From NCBI GenBank assembly GCA_963665235.2, contig CAXXLX010000001.1, positions 2,400,001-2,464,000 of the forward strand: DNA of 64,000 nucleotides. Direction: 5' to 3'. The DNA is from Candidatus Poribacteria bacterium. GTDB taxonomy: Bacteria; Poribacteria; WGA-4E; WGA-3G. Shown here piece by piece: positions 33,387-40,007 of this stretch; within the stretch, counting starts at the first letter, position 1, and each line of letters opens with the position of its first letter. The notes beneath the pieces are model-generated. The model saw only the letters and a program-made list of their open reading frames with translations. It was not told the DNA's origin and did not search any database. The translations under genes and the position numbers were made by a program.

Positions 33387-34097
33387 TTACCAGAGGCGTG
33401 TGAAATTCAATCTGCCGGTAAGTCCTGTTTCCTCATCACCTTTTTTAGTTTCATATCCAACATATATGCCGAGGGTGTTATTCTCACCGTAGCCGAGCTC
33501 CACACGTCCGCCGACGTTTAAATTCAACAGCTCACCCTCATCACCGAGCGTCATGAACGTTTCAATCTGCGGCCCGATTGCGATAGTATCGTTAAGGGAA
33601 TAGGTAATAAAATTGCGGGTGTAGAGAGAATCTGTCCTTTCGTCATCTAATACAGAAGCAACGGTGCTGTATGTCCAAGAGAAAAGGAACATCTTATCGA
33701 TGGATAAGAAAGCCAAGAATTGTGGATGCAATCTTTCCGGTCCATCCGCATTCTTATAATTAAAACCGATGCCGAGCATCGGGAGCAGGAAAAGTGACGA
33801 ATTGTCCTCGTAAAATGCGGGGACTGTGATGCCCATAGCAAACTCACCATCCGTGCCGTTTGCATAGATTTTAGAATCAAACGAGACGTTACCGAGCGGA
33901 TGGCTGGCTCCGACTAGGAAATAGGTGCCTAAGCTGTCCACGTCAACTTCGAACCATCCCGAAACCCCGCGTTCTTCTTCCTCTGTTTCTGCCTCGGTTT
34001 CATGAGCGTCCGCGAACGCAGTCGTGGAGAAACCGATGAAGCATACCATACACACTATCAGCAAGATAGCATGCAATTGAAATATTTCGATTTTCAT
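33387..34097 (-). CDS. Predicted outer-membrane beta-barrel hypothetical protein
   Basis: Signal peptide ending AFA, alternating amphipathic strands, C-terminal aromatic (NFTRLW). Confidence 0.65.
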   Translation of the reverse strand: MKIEIFQLHAILLIVCMVCFIGFSTTAFADAHETEAETEEEERGVSGWFEVDVDSLGTYFLVGASHPLGNVSFDSKIYANGTDGEFAMGITVPAFYEDNSSLFLLPMLGIGFNYKNADGPERLHPQFLAFLSIDKMFLFSWTYSTVASVLDDERTDSLYTRNFITYSLNDTIAIGPQIETFMTLGDEGELLNLNVGGRVELGYGENNTLGIYVGYETKKGDEETGLTGRLNFTRLW

Positions 34098-34242
34098 GTA
34101 AATCTCCTTTGTTGTGTGAATTAATCACATATATATTAGTATATCCTATTTTCCGAGAAGATTCAACAATTTTGGAGAATGCCTAGGCAGTTCGTCTGCT
34201 TTACCTCGCTTTGTGCCTACAGCGCAAAAATCCTTGCCTGAG

Positions 34243-34923
34243 TTAACCCGCTGCCTTGACCTGCCGCATCAACCGTTCCAGCTTATTTTTATCTTTGACA
34301 CCCTTCGATGCCTCCACACCGGAACAGAGGTCAATGCCGTGGGGTTGGATTGTCTCAATGGCTGCTTTGACGTTCTCCGGACGAATTCCCCCCGCAAAGA
34401 AAACCGGTAGCGGGCTTTCTGCGATAAGTGCAGCAGCAACATGCCAATCACAGGTTTTGCCTGTCCCACCATATCGGGGCGGTTCCTGGCTCATATCAAC
34501 AGTATCAAATAAGAGAAAATCGGCACCAGCATCCCGGTACGCGTCCATTTCTGCTTGAACTGCTAACATATCCACATTTTCTGGACTCCCCGCAGGCAGG
34601 TAAACCGATTTCCAGAGTTGACACGACACGTGTCCCTTAAGTGCTTCGACCTGTTGGGGCGGCTCCTGCCCGAGGAGCTGAACCGCAAACGGTTGAATTC
34701 GTGACACCGCTTCCTGAATCTCCGCCGTTGTTCGATTGTATAGCAGCAAAACCGTCGGAATGGGACTTACTTTAGCAATGTCTACCGCTTGTTCAGTGGT
34801 CAGCGACCGTTCTGAAGAGGCGACATCTACCAATACCCCAGAATAATCTGCACCGGCTTCAGCCGCTAGGTGGGCATCATGAATTGAGGTAGTGCCGCAG
34901 ATTTTGACAACGCACTTGTTCAT
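34243..34923 (-). CDS. trpF: Phosphoribosylanthranilate isomerase
   Basis: VKICG, GGTGKTCDW, AGGIRPENV, IDLCSGVE..GVKD. Confidence 0.92.
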   Translation of the reverse strand: MNKCVVKICGTTSIHDAHLAAEAGADYSGVLVDVASSERSLTTEQAVDIAKVSPIPTVLLLYNRTTAEIQEAVSRIQPFAVQLLGQEPPQQVEALKGHVSCQLWKSVYLPAGSPENVDMLAVQAEMDAYRDAGADFLLFDTVDMSQEPPRYGGTGKTCDWHVAAALIAESPLPVFFAGGIRPENVKAAIETIQPHGIDLCSGVEASKGVKDKNKLERLMRQVKAAG

Positions 34924-36357
34924 TTTTCTCCTTTCTCCTATCGTAATAGCATCCCATTGCCTTCGACTCCAAGACTAGCGAAACCCCTTCCGTTTAGGAG
35001 GCAGCAACGCCTTAAAAACTTTTGGAGCTCTCTTTTTCAGCTTGTCGAGTTGTCGTCCGATGAGTTTCCGAGTCGACTTATCTTCCTCTATCAATGTCAT
35101 CAATAATAGTATCCTGGCTTGTTCCTTTGCTGGAAATTCAGTTAGCTTATCAAGGATAGCATCTGTGTTTTCCTTCACCTCGTTTGGTTTTAGAAAACGG
35201 CGAATTGACCAAGACAACACAACTGCCATATAGATGTCATCTTGAGACTCGGAGGCTACCAATTCGTTGAGCATATCCTTTGTGTAAGGTTCCAAAAAAG
35301 CACTGTTAAAAGAGATGTCGCTTAGGGTCAGTGCAATGAAGTCAGAGAAAATATTAGGGATATTAACATCCATGGAAGCGAAGATTTCCTGGAATTTCTC
35401 ACGTACCTGGGGCGCATAACGAATTGCGTTTTTAAGCCCATAAGTGTGCTGTTGGGGCGGAGAGTGCCACCCCGCTTGGAGCAGCCGACCGCCAAGAAGT
35501 TTGCCAAGGTCGGCGGTGAGCTCCGTATCGGCATGCGAATAAATTTTTTCCAATAACGATTGACTTATCTCCCGCCGTAGCCCAATGTAAAAGAAGGCAA
35601 CCTCGCTCCAGAGGTCGTCGAAATAGGTGTCTACAATCAGGTCCTCATTTAGGTCCTCAACGTACCCCCAATTTTCATGGATGTAGAACGCAGCGAAGTA
35701 ATCAAGGAAAGACCTATGTTTGAAAATCACTTCCACCTGTCCATTTAAAATGCCTGCCCTCTCTATTTCTCGGACAAACCCCTTCAATTTTTCAGCGTCC
35801 CATCTATATTGCAGTGCATAAGCATTGAGAAACTGTTCAAATTCCTCGCGAGGCACTGCCAGCCTGTTTTTGTTCCGAAACTCTTGATAAGCGAGAACGC
35901 TCAGAAATTTCCTTTTCACGCGATAATCAAATAGCACCTCAATTCCTCTATCCCAATCTTCTGCACCTAGTGCCATGTCAAAAAACCGCTCGTAGAGTTC
36001 TGTGACAGATGCGGGAATCTCCTTATGTTCTTCAACCAACTCAACAAGTAGCATGAGGGAAAGCGGGACTAGCGGAATTTGTGCTTGTATTTTTTCAAGA
36101 CTTTCTTTCATGGCCGTCAACACGTTAGGGTCGCTTACCAATTTGGTAACCATTTTTAAAGCCTGACTGAATTCAAACGGAAGCAATTCATATTTCTGAT
36201 ATTTCTCAGGCAATGTGTTGAGAATGTCAATCTTCCGGCTGGTGAGAATATAGGAGCACCCTATTGATTCCGAAAATTCGTCCAATTTATCAATAACATC
36301 GCGTCGGTGGGGGGGATTCAATTTCATCAAAATCTTAGGTGTGTAGACCCCGTTGCT

Positions 36358-37424
36358 TTAGCACGGGGAGGAAACACCGCTCCTATATTGAAAGTTCAAG
36401 CGTGTGAGGACTTGAAAATCTGTGCGTTTCGCACCCGTTGTGAGGCGTTCACCTTCTAAACTATAGATAGAAAACACCCCTTTCGCATTAATACCCGTCC
36501 TCGGTGGGAAGGACGTGTGATACCGTGTTTGCCGTGCTTTATCAGCGTGTTTTTCACAAGTCCTTCGCCTAACACAGTTCCGCCATATCTTGACCGTATT
36601 CCGCCCTTTGCTGGTTGTTCTCGGTGCAAGTTACGCCTTGCTACGGGTATCGGGGATATGCAAAACACGGCTGTATTGTCGGGTTTGAGTGCCATCGCTT
36701 TCTTTGTGTCACCATTGACAACCGAATGTGCCATCACCCAACTATCAACGCAGTGTGCATAGAAGTCATCAGAGAGTTTGTCTTGGCTCTTCTCTAATCC
36801 TAATGCCTTCCTCCGCGCGGAAGTCCACCTGCCTTTATAGCAAAACACATTTCCAACGCCATAGCGTGCTATCAACTCAGAGACAAACCAGCGTTTACCA
36901 ACCTCCAACGGACTAAAAGCTGTGTTCCATCGCTTCTTACCCGGTTTTGTTCTTGCCTTGATGTCCTCCAAACAGATTTTTGTGACAGGATACAAGTCAG
37001 ACACCCAATCCAGGATGCGGAGTTTCCAATCCCAACGGGCCCGGGTGCCTGCGGGGAGTTTCTGTCTGTTCGCACCTTTGTTGGTGCGGTTCTTGCGGTT
37101 GGGACACTTCCGAGAACGCCTACCTCGGCGGAGTTCACGTCTTTTCTCAACCTTCTTTCCAACTTTGTTATGTGCATCTGCCTGCACGTTCAGATACGTA
37201 TGCGTCGCAGATTTGACGGTAAATCCCTCTTTCTTACTTCCAGGATCTACACCGACAACGATGTCTTGTGTTTCTCTATCACTCGGTGCTTTGTTGAGAC
37301 GGACACAATAGACACCGTTGTTCCAATAAGGCGTTGCTTCACCGCGTTTGACAAGTTTCCTCGCACGTGCAGCATGCATCGGCATCAGCTGTTGTCCATC
37401 CTTTGTTTTGACTGGCACAAACAT
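36358..37424 (-). CDS. isrB: IsrB (HNH-less IscB homologue, RRXRR/PLMP family), C-terminus frameshifted near 36500
   Basis: MFVPV..QLMP, RuvC-I GVDPGSK, Arg-rich bridge helix RRELRRGRRSRK, RuvC-II LEDI, RuvC-III HCVDS, no HNH or CxxC; tail TGINAKGVFSIYSLEGERLTTGAKRTDFQVL..* lies in a shifted frame. Confidence 0.85.
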
Positions 37425-37638
37425 AAGTTTGTTTTCTCCTTTCGGGTATATATTGCCCCATCCAGATCAGGGGTTCGTAGTGGAATCGGACTTGGGGAGC
37501 ATCCGAAACATACTTTAGGCTGCCACGCCCAGAACCCCCGATATATTACTGTAGTCAACAAGTTACCCTCGTCTCTGTGATAGCCTTGGCGGGCATCAAA
37601 GACAGGTTTCCCCTATGCTTTAGCTGGGGGTTATTGAC
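37425..37638 (-). ncRNA. omegaRNA (HEARO-like) scaffold of IsrB
   Basis: Directly upstream of isrB; gtcaa..ttgac pairing, ggatgctccccaagtcc motif, several hairpins; boundaries approximate. Confidence 0.75.
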
Positions 37639-38729
37639 CTAATCCATCAACGACCAATACATCTACGTGAAAACGTTTCTCGGTTTCATCGCATTCAAAG
37701 TGTGCTGACAGAAAACTGTCCACTGATTCTAATTCTAAGAATTGTCTTGCGGTGACGACGATAGGTACGGATATTTTTTTATCAGATTTTCCCGGTTTTT
37801 TCAACAAACGTTTGTAGGCATCTCGATACATACCAATGGCTAATTTCGCCATAGCACCTGTTTTACCGGTCCCCGGGTCACCTAATAAAATCAGTTTTTT
37901 CCGCTCCTTGGCGAAAATTTCTCGCAGATGCAAGAAAGAAAATTTCCTTTTTTTCAGTACCGTTCTTATACTCTTTTCATCAAATTTACGTTGCGCGGTG
38001 AGCGGTCTAATTAAGGGCTCAACGAAGTATTCGGACAAATTTTTACCCGATTCCCCACGCCGATGATTTGCCTCTAATTCGCTAATTTTCTTCTCAAGGA
38101 AACTGATAACTCTTCCTTCAAAGAAAATCTCCGGATAAAATTCGGTGAAATTGTCAATGAGCCAATTGATATCGAATACCTTAATTGTGGTTGCCGTTGT
38201 GAGTTCACTTGTAAGTCTTTTTCGCGCATTGTTACTACACTCCCCTGCTAACACAACGTAAACCGTGGAGACGGGTAAATCTTCAAGAATTGATTTCGTT
38301 TGAGCGGGATGTGCTTCAGCTTGTTCGATTTGGCTCTGAATTTCCGCTACTCTTTTCGCGGTGCTCCGCGAGAAAACAGCCTGAGTACGCGATTTTAAGT
38401 CGTCAACATCACCAAGAGTCTTACCGTTGATATGCCCACATTTCACCACAACCCCGATAACATGTGTGATAAGTCCGCTATTTTTAACCAGGACAAGGTC
38501 TTTCCCAAATTCCCGTGCGCCGTGGGTGATTTCTACTAGATAATCAGGCTCCATCGCTTGAAACAATTCTTTCAGGAGCTTATGCAAGTCCGTTTCCCGG
38601 TAATCCATAATGATTTGCCGTCGTAGAGCTTTTGGTAGAGATTGTGCTTTCTTCTTCAAATCCATTTTGCAGCTCCTTTTTTAGGAGAATAGGTGAGTAC
38701 AGAAACTCACCCTTACGGTTCGGCAAAAA

Positions 38730-39086
38730 CTACAAAAACACCGTTTGCCGGTCGGCATCCGAATAACAGATAATCATCGTCACAGGTTGCCAGCCGGTGT
38801 TGACAGCGTTGTGTTTTACGTTGCGCGGAATACGTAACATCATACCCGGTTTGAGCGGAATGACTTCATCTCCTAACGTATGGTCACATTCACCGGAGAG
38901 GACATAGATGAGCTCCTCACAGTTCGGATGATAGTGGGGTGGGTTTCCTTCGCCTGCATTAATGTAAACGACACCGAAAGTCATCTCAGCCGCCGGGTCG
39001 ATTTCGTTATTGCATAACCATTTAATGGCACCCCATGGAAATTCAAGAGCACCCGCCTCATTGCTATTGGTTAAGGTGATTTCCAT
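38730..39086 (-). CDS. Cupin domain protein
   Basis: HYHPNCEELIYVLSG, IPRNVKHNAVN. Confidence 0.9.
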   Translation of the reverse strand: MEITLTNSNEAGALEFPWGAIKWLCNNEIDPAAEMTFGVVYINAGEGNPPHYHPNCEELIYVLSGECDHTLGDEVIPLKPGMMLRIPRNVKHNAVNTGWQPVTMIICYSDADRQTVFL

Positions 39087-39119
39087 CGTCCTTTTCCTTT
39101 TATAGTAAGCGGCGTTTGT

Positions 39120-39956
39120 CTACACAGAAAAGCATGCCAATCTTTGTTGAACATACCCTTGTAGACCTACTGCCGGTTTTTCATGAAGATAGCCGATAGG
39201 TGCACAGATAGCTCTCACACTGTCGACCTGCTGGTTCACTTCATGATGTGTGTGCCCGAAGAGGACATGTGTGACAAGCGGTTCGTTACGGCAGCGCGCG
39301 CCGAGCCCTTCACTTCCCATGAACGCGCGAAAAAAGTCCCACGGCAACTCGCCGCGGTAGTGGATACACTCCCGAAACGGAACGTGATGTGTGACAACGA
39401 TGATACGCGATACCTGATTCCGGAGAAAATCGAGCTGCTTCCCAAGTTCCGCCTCAAAACGGTGGGCGATAGCTGGGTCGGTGTCGAGCCACCTGGCGTA
39501 GTGCTTATCACTCCAAACTGTCCCCATCAGCTGTTTTTCTGCGTATTGTTCGGTAGAAAAGTTGTAGCCTTCTGGGGCAAACGTATAATCATACCACCCG
39601 ATGGTACCACAGAATCCCACCGCTCCGATGAAATAGGGGGCATCCATGAGTGAAAAAAAACCATTGTCGTGACAAATTTCTGAAATTACCCGGCATTTTT
39701 GAGTGCTTGTCAGGCCAGCCTTTTCGCTAACCCAAATGTCGTGGTTGCCGGGAACGAAAAGCATCGGGCATGTCAAATCGGATTGTTTGAATTCACTAAG
39801 TATTTTGTAAAATTCGGATAAATTTGGCGTTATATCTCCAGCTAGGACAAAAACGTCAAGTTCTTCGGCTTCTATAGCATCGATAAGATACGGCACAATT
39901 GCGCTATTCGCTTCAGTTGCGTCTATATGTAGGTCAGAAATGAGTCCTATCTTCAT
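39120..39956 (-). CDS. Metallophosphoesterase
   Basis: ISDLH, LAGDI, PGNHD, THHVP, FGHTH. Confidence 0.92.
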   Translation of the reverse strand: MKIGLISDLHIDATEANSAIVPYLIDAIEAEELDVFVLAGDITPNLSEFYKILSEFKQSDLTCPMLFVPGNHDIWVSEKAGLTSTQKCRVISEICHDNGFFSLMDAPYFIGAVGFCGTIGWYDYTFAPEGYNFSTEQYAEKQLMGTVWSDKHYARWLDTDPAIAHRFEAELGKQLDFLRNQVSRIIVVTHHVPFRECIHYRGELPWDFFRAFMGSEGLGARCRNEPLVTHVLFGHTHHEVNQQVDSVRAICAPIGYLHEKPAVGLQGYVQQRLACFSV

Positions 39957-40007
39957 TATCAGCAGTTAGCAATCAGGTAGCGGGTTTGCTATAACAGCAT
40001 CCCGCGT

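What the first reader, a model, noticed from the sequence alone, without database searches (positions are those of the whole stretch)
34975..38665. IsrB OMEGA element inserted in the Walker B of an REase-NACHT gene, with readable guide and TAM
Seen (minus strand): host ..GTT GAT GGA TTA G | GTCAATAACCCC..element..AAGATTTTG | AT GAA ATT GAA. Excision restores VDGLDEIE with no target duplication. Knowledge: IscB/IsrB omegaRNA guides come from the flank 5' of the scaffold and the TAM lies 3' of the target; NTGA-type TAMs are reported for IsrB. Inference: the guide is the NACHT sequence ..gtattggtcgttgatggattag and the TAM is ATGA(A). The element therefore both inactivates a probable immune NTPase and is programmed against the intact allele. 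Precise excision by a TnpA in trans could switch the gene back on.
Basis: partly seen in the sequence, partly recalled or inferred. Interest (0 to 1): 0.72.

Follow-up and report, generated by a model that had tools for sequence, protein, structure and literature searches.

The report
IsrB transposon splitting a NACHT-like gene
A small mobile element that carries an RNA-guided DNA nickase (IsrB) and its guide RNA has landed exactly inside the ATP-binding motif of a probable defence gene; it is a very clean but ordinary example of a known kind of transposon.

Summary
A 1311-nt element (window 36328-37638, minus strand) splits a ~790-aa Mrr-REase/NACHT-like STAND gene after the first base of the Walker B aspartate codon, without target duplication.

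Contigs of two public runs from two studies carry the empty site, skipping exactly these 1311 nt. Two intact orthologues read DGLDEI across it.

The element is a non-autonomous IS200/IS605-type IsrB/omegaRNA element:
- IsrB paralogues match the solved DtIsrB structure.
- The 5' RNA scaffold shows strong covariation.
- Both ends carry hairpins of one class.
- 28 of 33 element ends in this genome abut ATGA, the reported NTGA-type TAM.

Three qualifications:
- This copy's IsrB has lost its TAM-interacting domain to a 10-nt deletion, so it needs one of 19 uninterrupted paralogues in trans.
- The host gene has a second lesion, a C7 run where both empty-site contigs have C6. Excision alone would give DGLDEIESPPPTRCY-stop.
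- The immune role is inferred only, with no PADLOC match.

In passing: 13 of 25 other copies sit exactly between a host gene's ribosome-binding site and its ATG, which is the TAM.

Verdict: new member of a known kind, modest interest.

The parts
37639..38665 (-). N-terminal part of the host gene (342 aa in the host frame): Mrr-like REase region, Walker A GDPGTGKT, ending at Walker B VLVVDGL. The frame runs 2 codons into the element (G, Q) to a stop at 37631.
   Evidence: family Pfam counts; invariant G265, D266, G270, K271 and D343, L345, D346, E347 in alignment A2
37639..37658 (-). Inferred 20-nt guide segment of the omegaRNA (host sequence ATTGGTCGTTGATGGATTAG immediately 5' of the scaffold).
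   Evidence: Position read. The 5' flanks of all 15 copies with a 5' end differ. The 20-nt 5' guide is taken from PMC9581776 passages and the guide lying outside the transposon end from Meers 2023 passages. No RNA 5' end was measured.
36328..37638 (-). The inserted element, 1311 nt, a non-autonomous IS200/IS605-type IsrB/omegaRNA element.
   Evidence: Empty-site contigs skip exactly this stretch. There are 59 BLAST matches in the own genome, and 26 elements have both ends recognised.
37425..37638 (-). omegaRNA scaffold, from the element's first base to the IsrB start codon. The Rfam HEARO alignment runs on to 37367.
   Evidence: HEARO RF02033: 21.8 bits, E 0.23, starting at 37638. On 21 paralogous copies, 44 pairs are 93% paired and 23 pairs have changes on both sides, against 2-8 in slid controls.
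37610..37630 (-). Subterminal hairpin CCCCCAGCTAAAGCATAGGGG. It is SL1 of the RNA and the presumed TnpA-binding hairpin of the transposon right end (canonical orientation).
   Evidence: helix at columns 9-29; one pair is broken in this copy; role inferred from PMC9581776 passages
36456..37424 (-). IsrB pseudogene: 322-aa frame with PLMP (QLMPMH) and RuvC motifs (VGVDPGSK, CLEDIK, AHCVDSW), frameshifted before the C-terminal TAM-interacting domain.
   Evidence: match to paralogue residues 1-313; the motifs were read by eye and their names are recalled
36361..36561 (-). Out-of-frame remnant of the IsrB C-terminal (TI) domain. Compared with the intact copy at C1:120253 this copy has -3 nt at about 36511 and -10 nt at about 36499.
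36348..36368 (-). Second subterminal hairpin CCCCGTGCTAAAGCAACGGGG (transposon left end in canonical orientation). It contains the stop codon of intact IsrB copies.
36324..36327 (-). ATGA target-adjacent motif. It is host sequence, made of bases 2-3 of the Walker B Asp codon and bases 1-2 of the Glu codon.
36309..36315 (-). C7 homopolymer, a +1 frameshift relative to the empty-site contigs (C6). It puts the C-terminal 450 aa in frame with the ATG of the TAM.
34975..36327 (-). C-terminal part of the host gene (450 aa read from the TAM ATG): the rest of the NTPase, a helical/nSTAND4 region and the C-terminal domain.
   Evidence: nSTAND_NTPase4, NB-ARC; alignment to orthologues

Best explanation
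A non-autonomous IS200/IS605-family element carrying isrB and its omegaRNA inserted by Y1-transposase 'peel and paste' immediately 5' of an ATGA motif. In IsrB orientation this motif lies 3' of the element. Here the motif is formed by the Asp-Glu codons (GAT GAA) of the Walker B box of a chromosomal Mrr-REase/NACHT-like STAND NTPase gene.

The insertion truncates the protein after VLVVDGL. Element and host gene point the same way, so host transcription reads from the gene into the omegaRNA scaffold. The last ~20 nt of the N-terminal gene fragment become the guide (inferred). A ribonucleoprotein made with this RNA would recognise guide-match plus ATGA, which is exactly the uninterrupted allele (inferred from published IsrB/IscB work).

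This copy is decaying. Its IsrB has lost the TAM-interacting domain, so any activity needs one of the paralogous IsrB proteins in trans. Excision needs a TnpA encoded elsewhere in the genome. The host gene also carries a +1 frameshift 12 nt beyond the insertion, so in this genome it is a pseudogene, or at best a split gene, and not a one-step switch.

Shown: boundaries, empty site, no duplication, protein family, RNA covariation, ATGA flank, second lesion. Inferred: guide use, nicking, mobilisation, defence role.
For: - Boundaries and empty site: (X6 skips 1311 nt; X1 skips the same plus one C). Orthologue DNA is, and the orthologue in G023 is syntenic.
- Protein: RRXRR at 1.8e-29 with no HNH match. 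An intact paralogue matches DtIsrB 8DMB at 1.4e-25 over 3-299, while IscB structures match only the first ~115 residues.
- RNA: the HEARO match starts at the first base of the element in the window and in 4 of 16 other loci scanned. RNAalifold gives 33 pairs, 16 with compensatory changes. My 44-pair structure is 93% paired, with 23 pairs changed on both sides; 0 of 500 shuffles reach this, and slid controls give 2-8.
- Ends: hairpins of one sequence class sit at both ends.
- TAM: ATGA follows 28 of 33 ends against 0.37% background. The 5' flanks of all 15 copies with a 5' end differ.
- Trans factors: 19 full-length IsrB frames without stops. There are 13 Y1_Tnp matches, 8 of them full-length open frames. 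Three of these lie in tnpA-tnpB elements whose left-end hairpin has the same GCTTTAGC loop.
- Literature: NTGA TAM, ~300-nt omegaRNA, 20-nt guide, nickase (passages of PMC9581776). Guide encoded outside the transposon end, need for read-through transcription, same-orientation bias, donor-joint targeting (passages of bioRxiv 10.1101/2023.03.14.532601).
Against: - The Rfam HEARO matches are all far below the gathering score: 21.8 bits in the window and 29.6-35 bits in other copies, against 83. 12 of the 16 other loci gave no match at E<=1.
- No raw RNA reads were available, so the 5' end of the RNA and the guide are not measured.
- This copy's IsrB is frameshifted, and one pair of its SL1 hairpin is broken.
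- No TnpA lies within any IsrB element. The one tnpA-tnpB element examined abuts a different flank (TTATCA-type), so the cognate transposase is not identified.
- IsrB nicks only one strand. Homing by a nickase is not shown in what I read.
- Whether C7 is real or an assembly error is open. Other long homopolymers in the window do not break frames: 15 of 20 runs lie inside open frames of 150 aa or more. That is only weak support for a real mutation.
Confidence: 0.88

Rival explanations
1. Inert fossil. The element is a dead scar that no longer makes a usable guide RNA, is no longer excised, and has no effect beyond having killed the gene.
For: IsrB is frameshifted with the TI domain lost. One SL1 pair is broken and a 3-nt insertion lies in the scaffold. 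The host gene carries a second lesion, suggesting time since insertion. The copy has 38 mismatches to the nearest intact copy.
Against: Both terminal hairpins and the end sequences are intact and match active-looking copies. All other helices of the scaffold are kept. Four full-length IsrB frames without stops are 95-100% identical to the query paralogue and could supply protein. The C7 may be an assembly error.
Confidence: 0.35
2. Adaptive switch. Insertion and precise excision of the element, perhaps together with slippage of the C6/C7 run, act as a reversible on/off control of a costly defence gene in the population.
For: Filled (window) and empty (runs X1, X6) alleles both exist in nature. 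IS200/IS605 excision is scarless (Meers 2023 passages). TnpA genes are present. The second lesion sits in a slippage-prone homopolymer.
Against: Two independent events would be needed to restore the gene. The filled and empty alleles were seen in different data sets, not in one population. No evidence shows that the gene is a defence gene or costly. Only one such insertion into this gene family was seen: the orthologues in G023 and G012 are uninterrupted. The published role of the nuclease is to oppose loss of the element, the opposite of a free switch.
Confidence: 0.07
3. The intervening sequence is removed at the RNA level (intron-like or IStron-like), so the gene stays functional.
For: IS605-type elements fused to group I introns exist (title and abstract of PMC4227781 in the listing).
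Against: No ribozyme or intron family matched window 34000-40000 at E<=1; HEARO was the only hit. The element has no extra sequence beyond scaffold, ORF and ends. The C7 frameshift would still break the spliced frame.
Confidence: 0.01
4. Assembly artefact. A repeat copy was wrongly placed into an intact gene.
For: The element is a multi-copy repeat. The public runs laid show only the empty form across this site.
Against: The junctions fall exactly at the family's ends and next to its ATGA motif. A chance misjoin would not do this. This copy has private differences from every other copy.
Confidence: 0.02

Closest known systems
IsrB/omegaRNA OMEGA elements of the IS200/IS605 superfamily (e.g. 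Desulfovirgula thermocuniculi IsrB, PDB 8DMB)
   Same: - Protein architecture: PLMP, split RuvC, no HNH, C-terminal TI domain in intact paralogues.
- A structured RNA of ~210 nt between the element end and the start codon (the weak HEARO alignment spans 272 nt, running into the ORF).
- A guide taken from the 5' flank.
- An NTGA-type motif 3' of the target.
- Mostly without TnpA in cis.
   Different: - This copy is coding-dead.
- Sequence identity to DtIsrB is low (E 1.4e-25).
- The RNA matches Rfam HEARO only weakly.
- No activity was tested.
G. stearothermophilus IS605-family IscB/TnpB elements (Meers et al. 2023): donor-joint targeting
   Same: - Scarless empty site.
- A TAM shared by insertion site and nuclease.
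- A guide that matches the rejoined flanks.
- Element in the same orientation as the upstream host transcription.
   Different: There the nucleases make double-strand breaks and retention was measured. IsrB is a nickase, and nothing was measured here.
Bacterial NACHT (NLR-like) defence proteins with N-terminal nuclease effectors
   Same: - Domain order of the host gene: Mrr-type REase, then P-loop with GxxGxGKT, hhhhDGLDE Walker B, helical and C-terminal sensor-like region.
- Weak match to NCBIfam antiphage_EruA at 1.4e-8.
   Different: - No PADLOC family matches.
- Pfam NACHT is below its cut-off in this orthologue.
- In G023 the gene lies beside the same upstream genes as in the window. The window ORF just downstream reads like phosphoribosylanthranilate isomerase by eye (no search run).
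- The comparison with published bNACHT systems rests on recall.
Stand-alone omegaRNA / miniature derivatives of IS200/IS605 elements
   Same: Seven 450-567-nt copies in this genome keep both ends and the scaffold but no ORF.
   Different: They carry an extra ~40-nt hairpin insertion in the scaffold. That such stand-alone RNAs were reported before is recalled; Altae-Tran 2021 could not be read.

Membership tests
IsrB (OMEGA, IS200/IS605 superfamily) | Protein with N-terminal PLMP domain and RuvC split by a bridge helix, and no HNH domain | tested here: met
   RRXRR PF14239 at 1.8e-29 covers residues 3-157 and no HNH family is reported. NCBIfam guided_IscB matches only residues 5-156, at 85.8 bits against a cut-off of 175. 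8DMB IsrB matches at 1.4e-25 over 3-299 of the intact paralogue.
IsrB (OMEGA, IS200/IS605 superfamily) | Intact C-terminal TAM-interacting domain | tested here: not met
   For the window copy, a 10-nt deletion at about 36499 shifts the frame. The feature is met in 19 paralogous full-length frames.
IsrB (OMEGA, IS200/IS605 superfamily) | Structured omegaRNA encoded between the transposon end and the ORF | tested here: met
   Covariation on 21 copies: 93% paired, 23 of 44 pairs changed on both sides, slid controls 2-8. The match to the curated Rfam HEARO model is below the gathering score (21.8-35 vs 83), so membership of RF02033 itself is inconclusive.
IsrB (OMEGA, IS200/IS605 superfamily) | Guide derived from the 5' flank, with the TAM (NTGA) 3' of the target | tested here: inconclusive
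   The genomic arrangement fits: all 15 5' flanks differ and ATGA follows 28 of 33 ends. The RNA 5' end and cleavage were not measured.
IS200/IS605 transposon | Subterminal hairpins, no terminal inverted repeats, no target-site duplication, insertion next to a short motif | tested here: met
   Hairpins at 37610-37630 and 36348-36368. Empty-site contigs skip exactly 1311 nt. ATGA flank.
IS200/IS605 transposon | Y1 (HUH) transposase TnpA | tested here: not met
   None lies within the element. There are 13 Y1_Tnp matches elsewhere in the genome, 8 of them full-length. The element is therefore non-autonomous, as most IscB/IsrB loci are (Meers 2023 legend).
NACHT / STAND NTPase | P-loop Walker A and hhhhDGLDE-type Walker B; match to the NACHT profile | tested here: inconclusive
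   The motifs are present and invariant in 39 homologues. Pfam NACHT scores 23.4 bits against a cut-off of 26.7 in the G023 orthologue, and 30 of 39 family members match at E<=0.001. nSTAND3, nSTAND4 and NB-ARC also match weakly.
Mrr-type restriction endonuclease N-terminal domain | Match to PF04471 Mrr_cat | tested here: inconclusive
   No match at E<=0.01 for the window fragment or the G023 orthologue. 18 of 39 family members match at E<=0.001, best 6e-7.
Known anti-phage defence system | Match to a curated defence-system model | tested here: not met
   PADLOC gives 0 families. NCBIfam antiphage_EruA scores 33.4 bits against a cut-off of 1000. The function itself is not testable with these tools.

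The most novel reading that the evidence does not exclude
In this IsrB lineage the TAM is, in about half of the copies, literally the start codon of a host gene (ATG/GTG plus A). The element docks between the Shine-Dalgarno sequence and the start codon of same-strand genes, some of them matching housekeeping families (aconitase family, MurJ).

Three consequences would follow:
- The conserved element end (…CCGAAGATTTTG) would have to support translation initiation.
- The displaced ribosome-binding site would become the omegaRNA guide.
- Host transcription would drive both.

In the NACHT-like gene the +1 slip to C7 has recreated this arrangement. The C-terminal 450 aa could then be made from the TAM ATG, giving a split protein rather than a dead one.
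Probability: 0.2. Interest if true: 0.6.

Novelty: new member of a known kind. Interest (0 to 1): 0.33.

Why it matters
It is a natural, fully readable example of an OMEGA element with all its parts in place:
- both ends;
- a scaffold supported by covariation;
- guide and TAM;
- the empty allele found independently in two public data sets;
- intact paralogous IsrB genes and candidate transposases in the same genome.

That makes it a convenient test bed for a question that was open in what I read: whether a nickase-type OMEGA system promotes retention or homing as TnpB and IscB do.

It adds nothing new in kind. The idea of a reversible switch for a defence gene is weakened by the second frameshift.

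The start-codon docking seen in the other copies may be the more useful lead. It bears on how such elements persist in compact genomes without killing host genes.

Tried and rejected
- wrong frame in one DNA reference. Corrected.
- end motifs with 2 mismatches gave mostly chance hits (137 and 968). Replaced by hairpin-anchored patterns.
- a literature search for HEARO and ATGA returned only irrelevant papers.
- Weinberg 2009 and Altae-Tran 2021 are not held. My memory that HEARO elements were reported to insert before ATGA/GTGA, and that stand-alone omegaRNAs were reported, could not be checked.
- bad search term. Corrected.
- a profile of the host family against PDB sequences gave no match at E<=0.01.
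- PADLOC gave no match for the host orthologue or for IsrB.
- no earlier findings to show for this look-up.
- script error. Rerun.
- RNA evidence: contigs of the metatranscriptome run X7 cover the scaffold (37486-37638) at higher summed depth than the ORF. Depth of contigs summed over a multi-copy family cannot rank parts, and DNA may be present in the library. I draw nothing from it beyond noting that sequences of this family occur in an RNA library.
- Filled allele in public runs: no listed piece bridges a host-element junction, and 318 pieces were not shown. Nothing follows from this.
- the count of ATGA/GTGA in relatives (16 and 4 of 20) is circular, because my pattern required [AG]TGA. 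I use that call only for the open frames behind the motif. 10 of the 30 loci had no recognised end. Three of those show …GATTAG followed by ATAA, i.e. another flank type.
- I tried by eye to match the TnpA cleavage-site/guide base-pairing rule of IS608 (recalled) to these ends and found no convincing pairing. Dropped.
- I did not fold the host N-terminal domain or run complex prediction. The answer would not change the verdict.
Full report
**1. The observation**

On the minus strand the window reads ...GTT GAT GGA TTA G | GTCAATAACCCCCAGCTAAAGC ... CACACCTAAGATTTTG | ATGAAATTGAATCCCCCCCACCGA.... The last host base is 37639. The element runs from 37638 down to 36328, which is 1311 nt. Host sequence resumes at 36327.

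The upstream frame (37639-38665) gives 342 residues ending VLVVDGL, then two codons of the element and a stop (ORF 37631-38665, 344 aa).

**2. The empty site exists**

I laid contigs of four public runs on window 35600-38400.
- Run X6: one 1030-nt contig joins 36327 directly to 37639. It skips 1311 nt, with one letter fitting either side.
- Run X1, from another study: one 695-nt contig joins 36314 to 37639 with 12 letters between. Those letters are identical to window 36316-36327. So X1 lacks the same 1311 nt plus one base of the C run.

The element is therefore an insertion without target duplication. The single ambiguous G belongs to the host, because the base before GTCAA varies among the other copies (a, g or t).

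Two of 40 related genomes searched carry an uninterrupted homologue of the N-terminal part. G023 has 794 aa at 74% identity. G012 has 778 aa at 62% identity. They read VDGLDEIDPSYRRDMVDRLDEF and IDGLDEIESTNQGSVIDRLDEL. Their DNA reads GAT GGT TTG GAT GAA ATT and GAT GGA TTA GAT GAG ATT. The G023 gene has the same two upstream neighbours as the window gene, at 93% and 67% identity.

**3.

In the restored frame the window reads DGLDEIESPPPTRCY and then a stop. The C-terminal 450 residues (34975-36327) lie in the frame of the ATG at 36325-36327.

The cause is the run of seven C at 36309-36315. The X6 contig has one letter left out at 36309, and the X1 contig also has six C. With six C the sequence would read DEIESPHRRDVIDKLDEF. 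That gives the same 13 residues between DGL and (K/R)LDE as in both orthologues.

I could not decide whether the seventh C is a mutation or an assembly error. 15 of 20 long homopolymers in the window lie inside open frames of at least 150 aa, so the assembly is not riddled with such errors. That is weak evidence only.

**4. What the element is**

*Protein.* The 322-aa frame (36456-37424) matches Pfam RRXRR at 1.8e-29 and no HNH family. The genome holds 59 DNA matches to the element and 32 protein matches. 19 of the protein matches are full-length frames without stops. An intact paralogue (359 aa, C1:120464-121540) matches the solved IsrB of D. thermocuniculi (8DMB) at 1.4e-25 over residues 3-299. 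It matches IscB structures only over the first ~115 residues. NCBIfam guided_IscB matches only its N-terminal half and below cut-off.

*Damage in this copy.* Compared with that paralogue the window copy has 38 mismatches, +3 nt at 37607-37609, -3 nt at about 36511 and -10 nt at about 36499. The last change shifts the frame before the C-terminal domain. The remnant of that domain lies out of frame at 36361-36561. So this IsrB is a pseudogene.

*RNA.* Rfam's HEARO model gives a full-length but weak match at 37367-37638: 21.8 bits against a gathering score of 83, E 0.23. It begins at the first base of the element. Of 16 other loci scanned, 4 gave such a match (29.6-35 bits), each again starting at the element's first base, and 12 gave none.

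Because the genome holds diverged subfamilies (66-96% identity), I aligned 21 copies of the 5' region.
- RNAalifold predicts 33 pairs, 16 with compensatory changes.
- A 44-pair structure that adds the closing stem and one more hairpin is 93% paired.
- It has 23 pairs changed on both sides. 0 of 500 shuffles reach this, and structures slid by 1-3 columns give 2-8 such pairs.

The copies are paralogues in one genome and are related, so the shuffle figure is not a probability. The slid controls are the fairer comparison.

*Ends.* Both ends carry hairpins of one class: CCCC-N-GCTAAAGC-N-GGGG at 37610-37630 and at 36348-36368.

*Flanks.* The 5' flanks of all 15 copies with a recognisable 5' end differ. 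Of 33 recognisable 3' ends, 28 are followed by ATGA. The other five are followed by AGGA, ATGG, ATAC, AAGC and GTAA. The background is 0.37% per position and strand. The empty site and the orthologues show that ATGA is host sequence.

*Transposase.* No transposase lies inside any copy. The genome has 13 matches to Y1_Tnp, 8 of them full-length open frames. Three of these sit in tnpA-tnpB elements whose left-end hairpin has the same loop, but those elements abut a different flank. The cognate TnpA is therefore not identified.

*Census.* Of 26 elements with both ends recognised, seven are 450-567-nt miniatures. They keep both ends and the scaffold and have no ORF. The IsrB family was found in 19 of 40 relatives searched.

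**5. How it most likely works**

Published passages I read say the following.
- IsrB binds a ~300-nt omegaRNA with a 20-nt 5' guide. It nicks the non-target strand next to a 5'-NTGA-3' TAM (PMC9581776).
- For IscB-type elements the guide is encoded outside the transposon end. The RNA therefore depends on transcription entering from the flank, and such elements are biased to the orientation of the upstream gene (bioRxiv 10.1101/2023.03.14.532601).
- The rejoined donor site is the target of the nuclease, and TnpA and the nuclease share the TAM.

The window fits on every genomic count.
- Element and host gene point the same way.
- The 20 nt at 37639-37658 would be the guide.
- In the empty allele this sequence is followed directly by ATGA.
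- No difference from the window is listed within 37639-37675 for the X1 or X6 contigs. The table is truncated, though, and one of the eight X1 differences is not shown.

The guide, the nicking and the mobilisation are inferred, not measured. Targeting the intact allele is a general property of these elements, not a peculiarity of this insertion.

**6. The host gene**

The full-length homologues form a well-populated family of about 790 aa, with 249 proteins at E<=1e-5. Of 39 aligned members, the Pfam matches at E<=0.001 are:

| Pfam family | Members matching (of 39) |
|---|---|
| nSTAND_NTPase4 | 34 |
| NACHT | 30 |
| NB-ARC | 25 |
| Mrr_cat | 18 |

The G023 orthologue alone is below every cut-off, with NACHT at 23.4 bits against 26.7. 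Walker A (GDPGTGKT) and the D-L-D-E of Walker B are invariant in the alignment. The insertion falls between the L and D codons.

PADLOC has no match. A profile search of PDB sequences has none. NCBIfam gives a weak partial match to antiphage_EruA at 1.4e-8, far below cut-off. 'REase-NACHT' is thus fair at family level. 'Immune' is an inference from architecture.

One truncated homologue is named by its source as coming from a Candidatus Poribacteria MAG.

**7. Comparison and novelty**

This is a new member of a known kind: an IS200/IS605-type IsrB/omegaRNA element, non-autonomous like most. What is better than usual is the completeness of the evidence: a natural empty site in two studies, covariation from paralogues, and trans factors in the same genome. 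The reversible-switch idea is weakened by the second frameshift and by the published role of the nuclease, which opposes loss of the element.

**8. Seen in passing: docking at start codons**

Of the 25 other elements with both ends, 13 are followed by an open frame of at least 190 codons that starts with the ATG of the TAM, on the same strand. For all 39,677 ATGA sites of the genome the share is 11.1%. It is 4.5% if an in-frame stop within 50 codons upstream is also required.

Eight such frames were scanned against Pfam and six have families. Three of them start at the very N-terminus:
- aconitase family, residues 7-457 on profile 1-463;
- MurJ, from residue 32 on profile position 3;
- BatA, residues 1-76 on profile 1-77.

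In 8 of the 13, the 20 nt before the element hold a Shine-Dalgarno-like motif, against 10% at random places.

In five related genomes, 13 of the 20 loci whose end I could recognise (of 30 fetched) have at least 150 open codons from the ATG or GTG of the motif. My pattern required [AG]TGA, so that call says nothing about the TAM itself.

These elements therefore often sit between a gene's ribosome-binding site and its start codon. The guide then covers the ribosome-binding site. I did not find this stated in the passages and listings I saw. I could not read Weinberg 2009 or Altae-Tran 2021, and supplements are closed, so I do not claim it is unpublished.

In the window the seventh C puts the C-terminal 450 aa into the frame of the TAM ATG, which mimics that arrangement. 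Given a single-base indel this has roughly even odds by chance.

**9. Verdict**

It is wrong or unproven in its most interesting consequence, the one-step reactivation of an immune gene. Interest is modest.

Noticed in passing
G000 genome-wide, e.g. L012:2696-4093, L010:2792-4288, L019:3-1499: 13 of 25 other IsrB/omegaRNA elements lie exactly in front of a same-strand open frame of at least 190 codons whose start codon is the ATG of the ATGA motif. The background is 11.1%, or 4.5% for start-like sites. 6 of 8 such frames tested have Pfam families, including aconitase family, MurJ and BatA starting at the N-terminus. 8 of the 13 have a Shine-Dalgarno-like motif in the 20 nt before the element. 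13 of 20 recognisable loci in five relatives show the same.
   Followed up: partly
window 36309-36327: The extra C (C7 against C6 in both empty-site contigs) puts the C-terminal 450 aa of the split gene in frame with the ATG of the TAM. The remnant thus has the same layout as the start-codon insertions. It may be chance, with about even odds given a one-base indel.
   Followed up: partly
window 37676-37724: Seven of the eight differences between the window and the X1 empty-site contig over 37639-38173 cluster in 49 nt, 37-85 nt from the junction. The X6 contig shares them. By hand they are 3 synonymous changes and 3 changed residues (D326E, T328I, K330S). This looks like a patch exchanged between diverged functional alleles rather than decay.
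   Followed up: partly
G000 C1:19462-19938, 337433-337901, 504553-505002, 532866-533432, 680877-681345, 1154421-1154878, 1888074-1888563: Seven miniature derivatives (450-567 nt) keep both transposon ends and the omegaRNA scaffold but have no ORF. Their scaffold carries an extra ~40-nt hairpin.
   Followed up: partly
G000 C2:338801-340338 (L032), C1:3153021-3154545, C1:31729-33262: Three copies of an IS605-type tnpA-tnpB element have a left-end hairpin with the same GCTTTAGC loop as the IsrB elements, but they abut a TTATCA-type flank. They are candidate, unproven sources of a transposase for the IsrB elements.
   Followed up: partly
L067, L072, L091 (relatives G018, G009): An IsrB subfamily in related genomes ends ...GCGAAGATTAG and is followed by ATAA instead of ATGA. 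This suggests a different target motif.
   Followed up: no
window 36499-36525 and paralogues: Most IsrB copies carry a 24-nt segment coding ...RPRSHRGHPIT... between the conserved GITR and GINAKG. It is absent from copies C1:1658347 and C2:178602 (GITRLAGINAKG). The window's frameshifting deletion lies inside this segment.
   Followed up: no
L004:752-1078: Three tRNA genes lie about 420-750 nt upstream of the IsrB element at C1:1658347.
   Followed up: no
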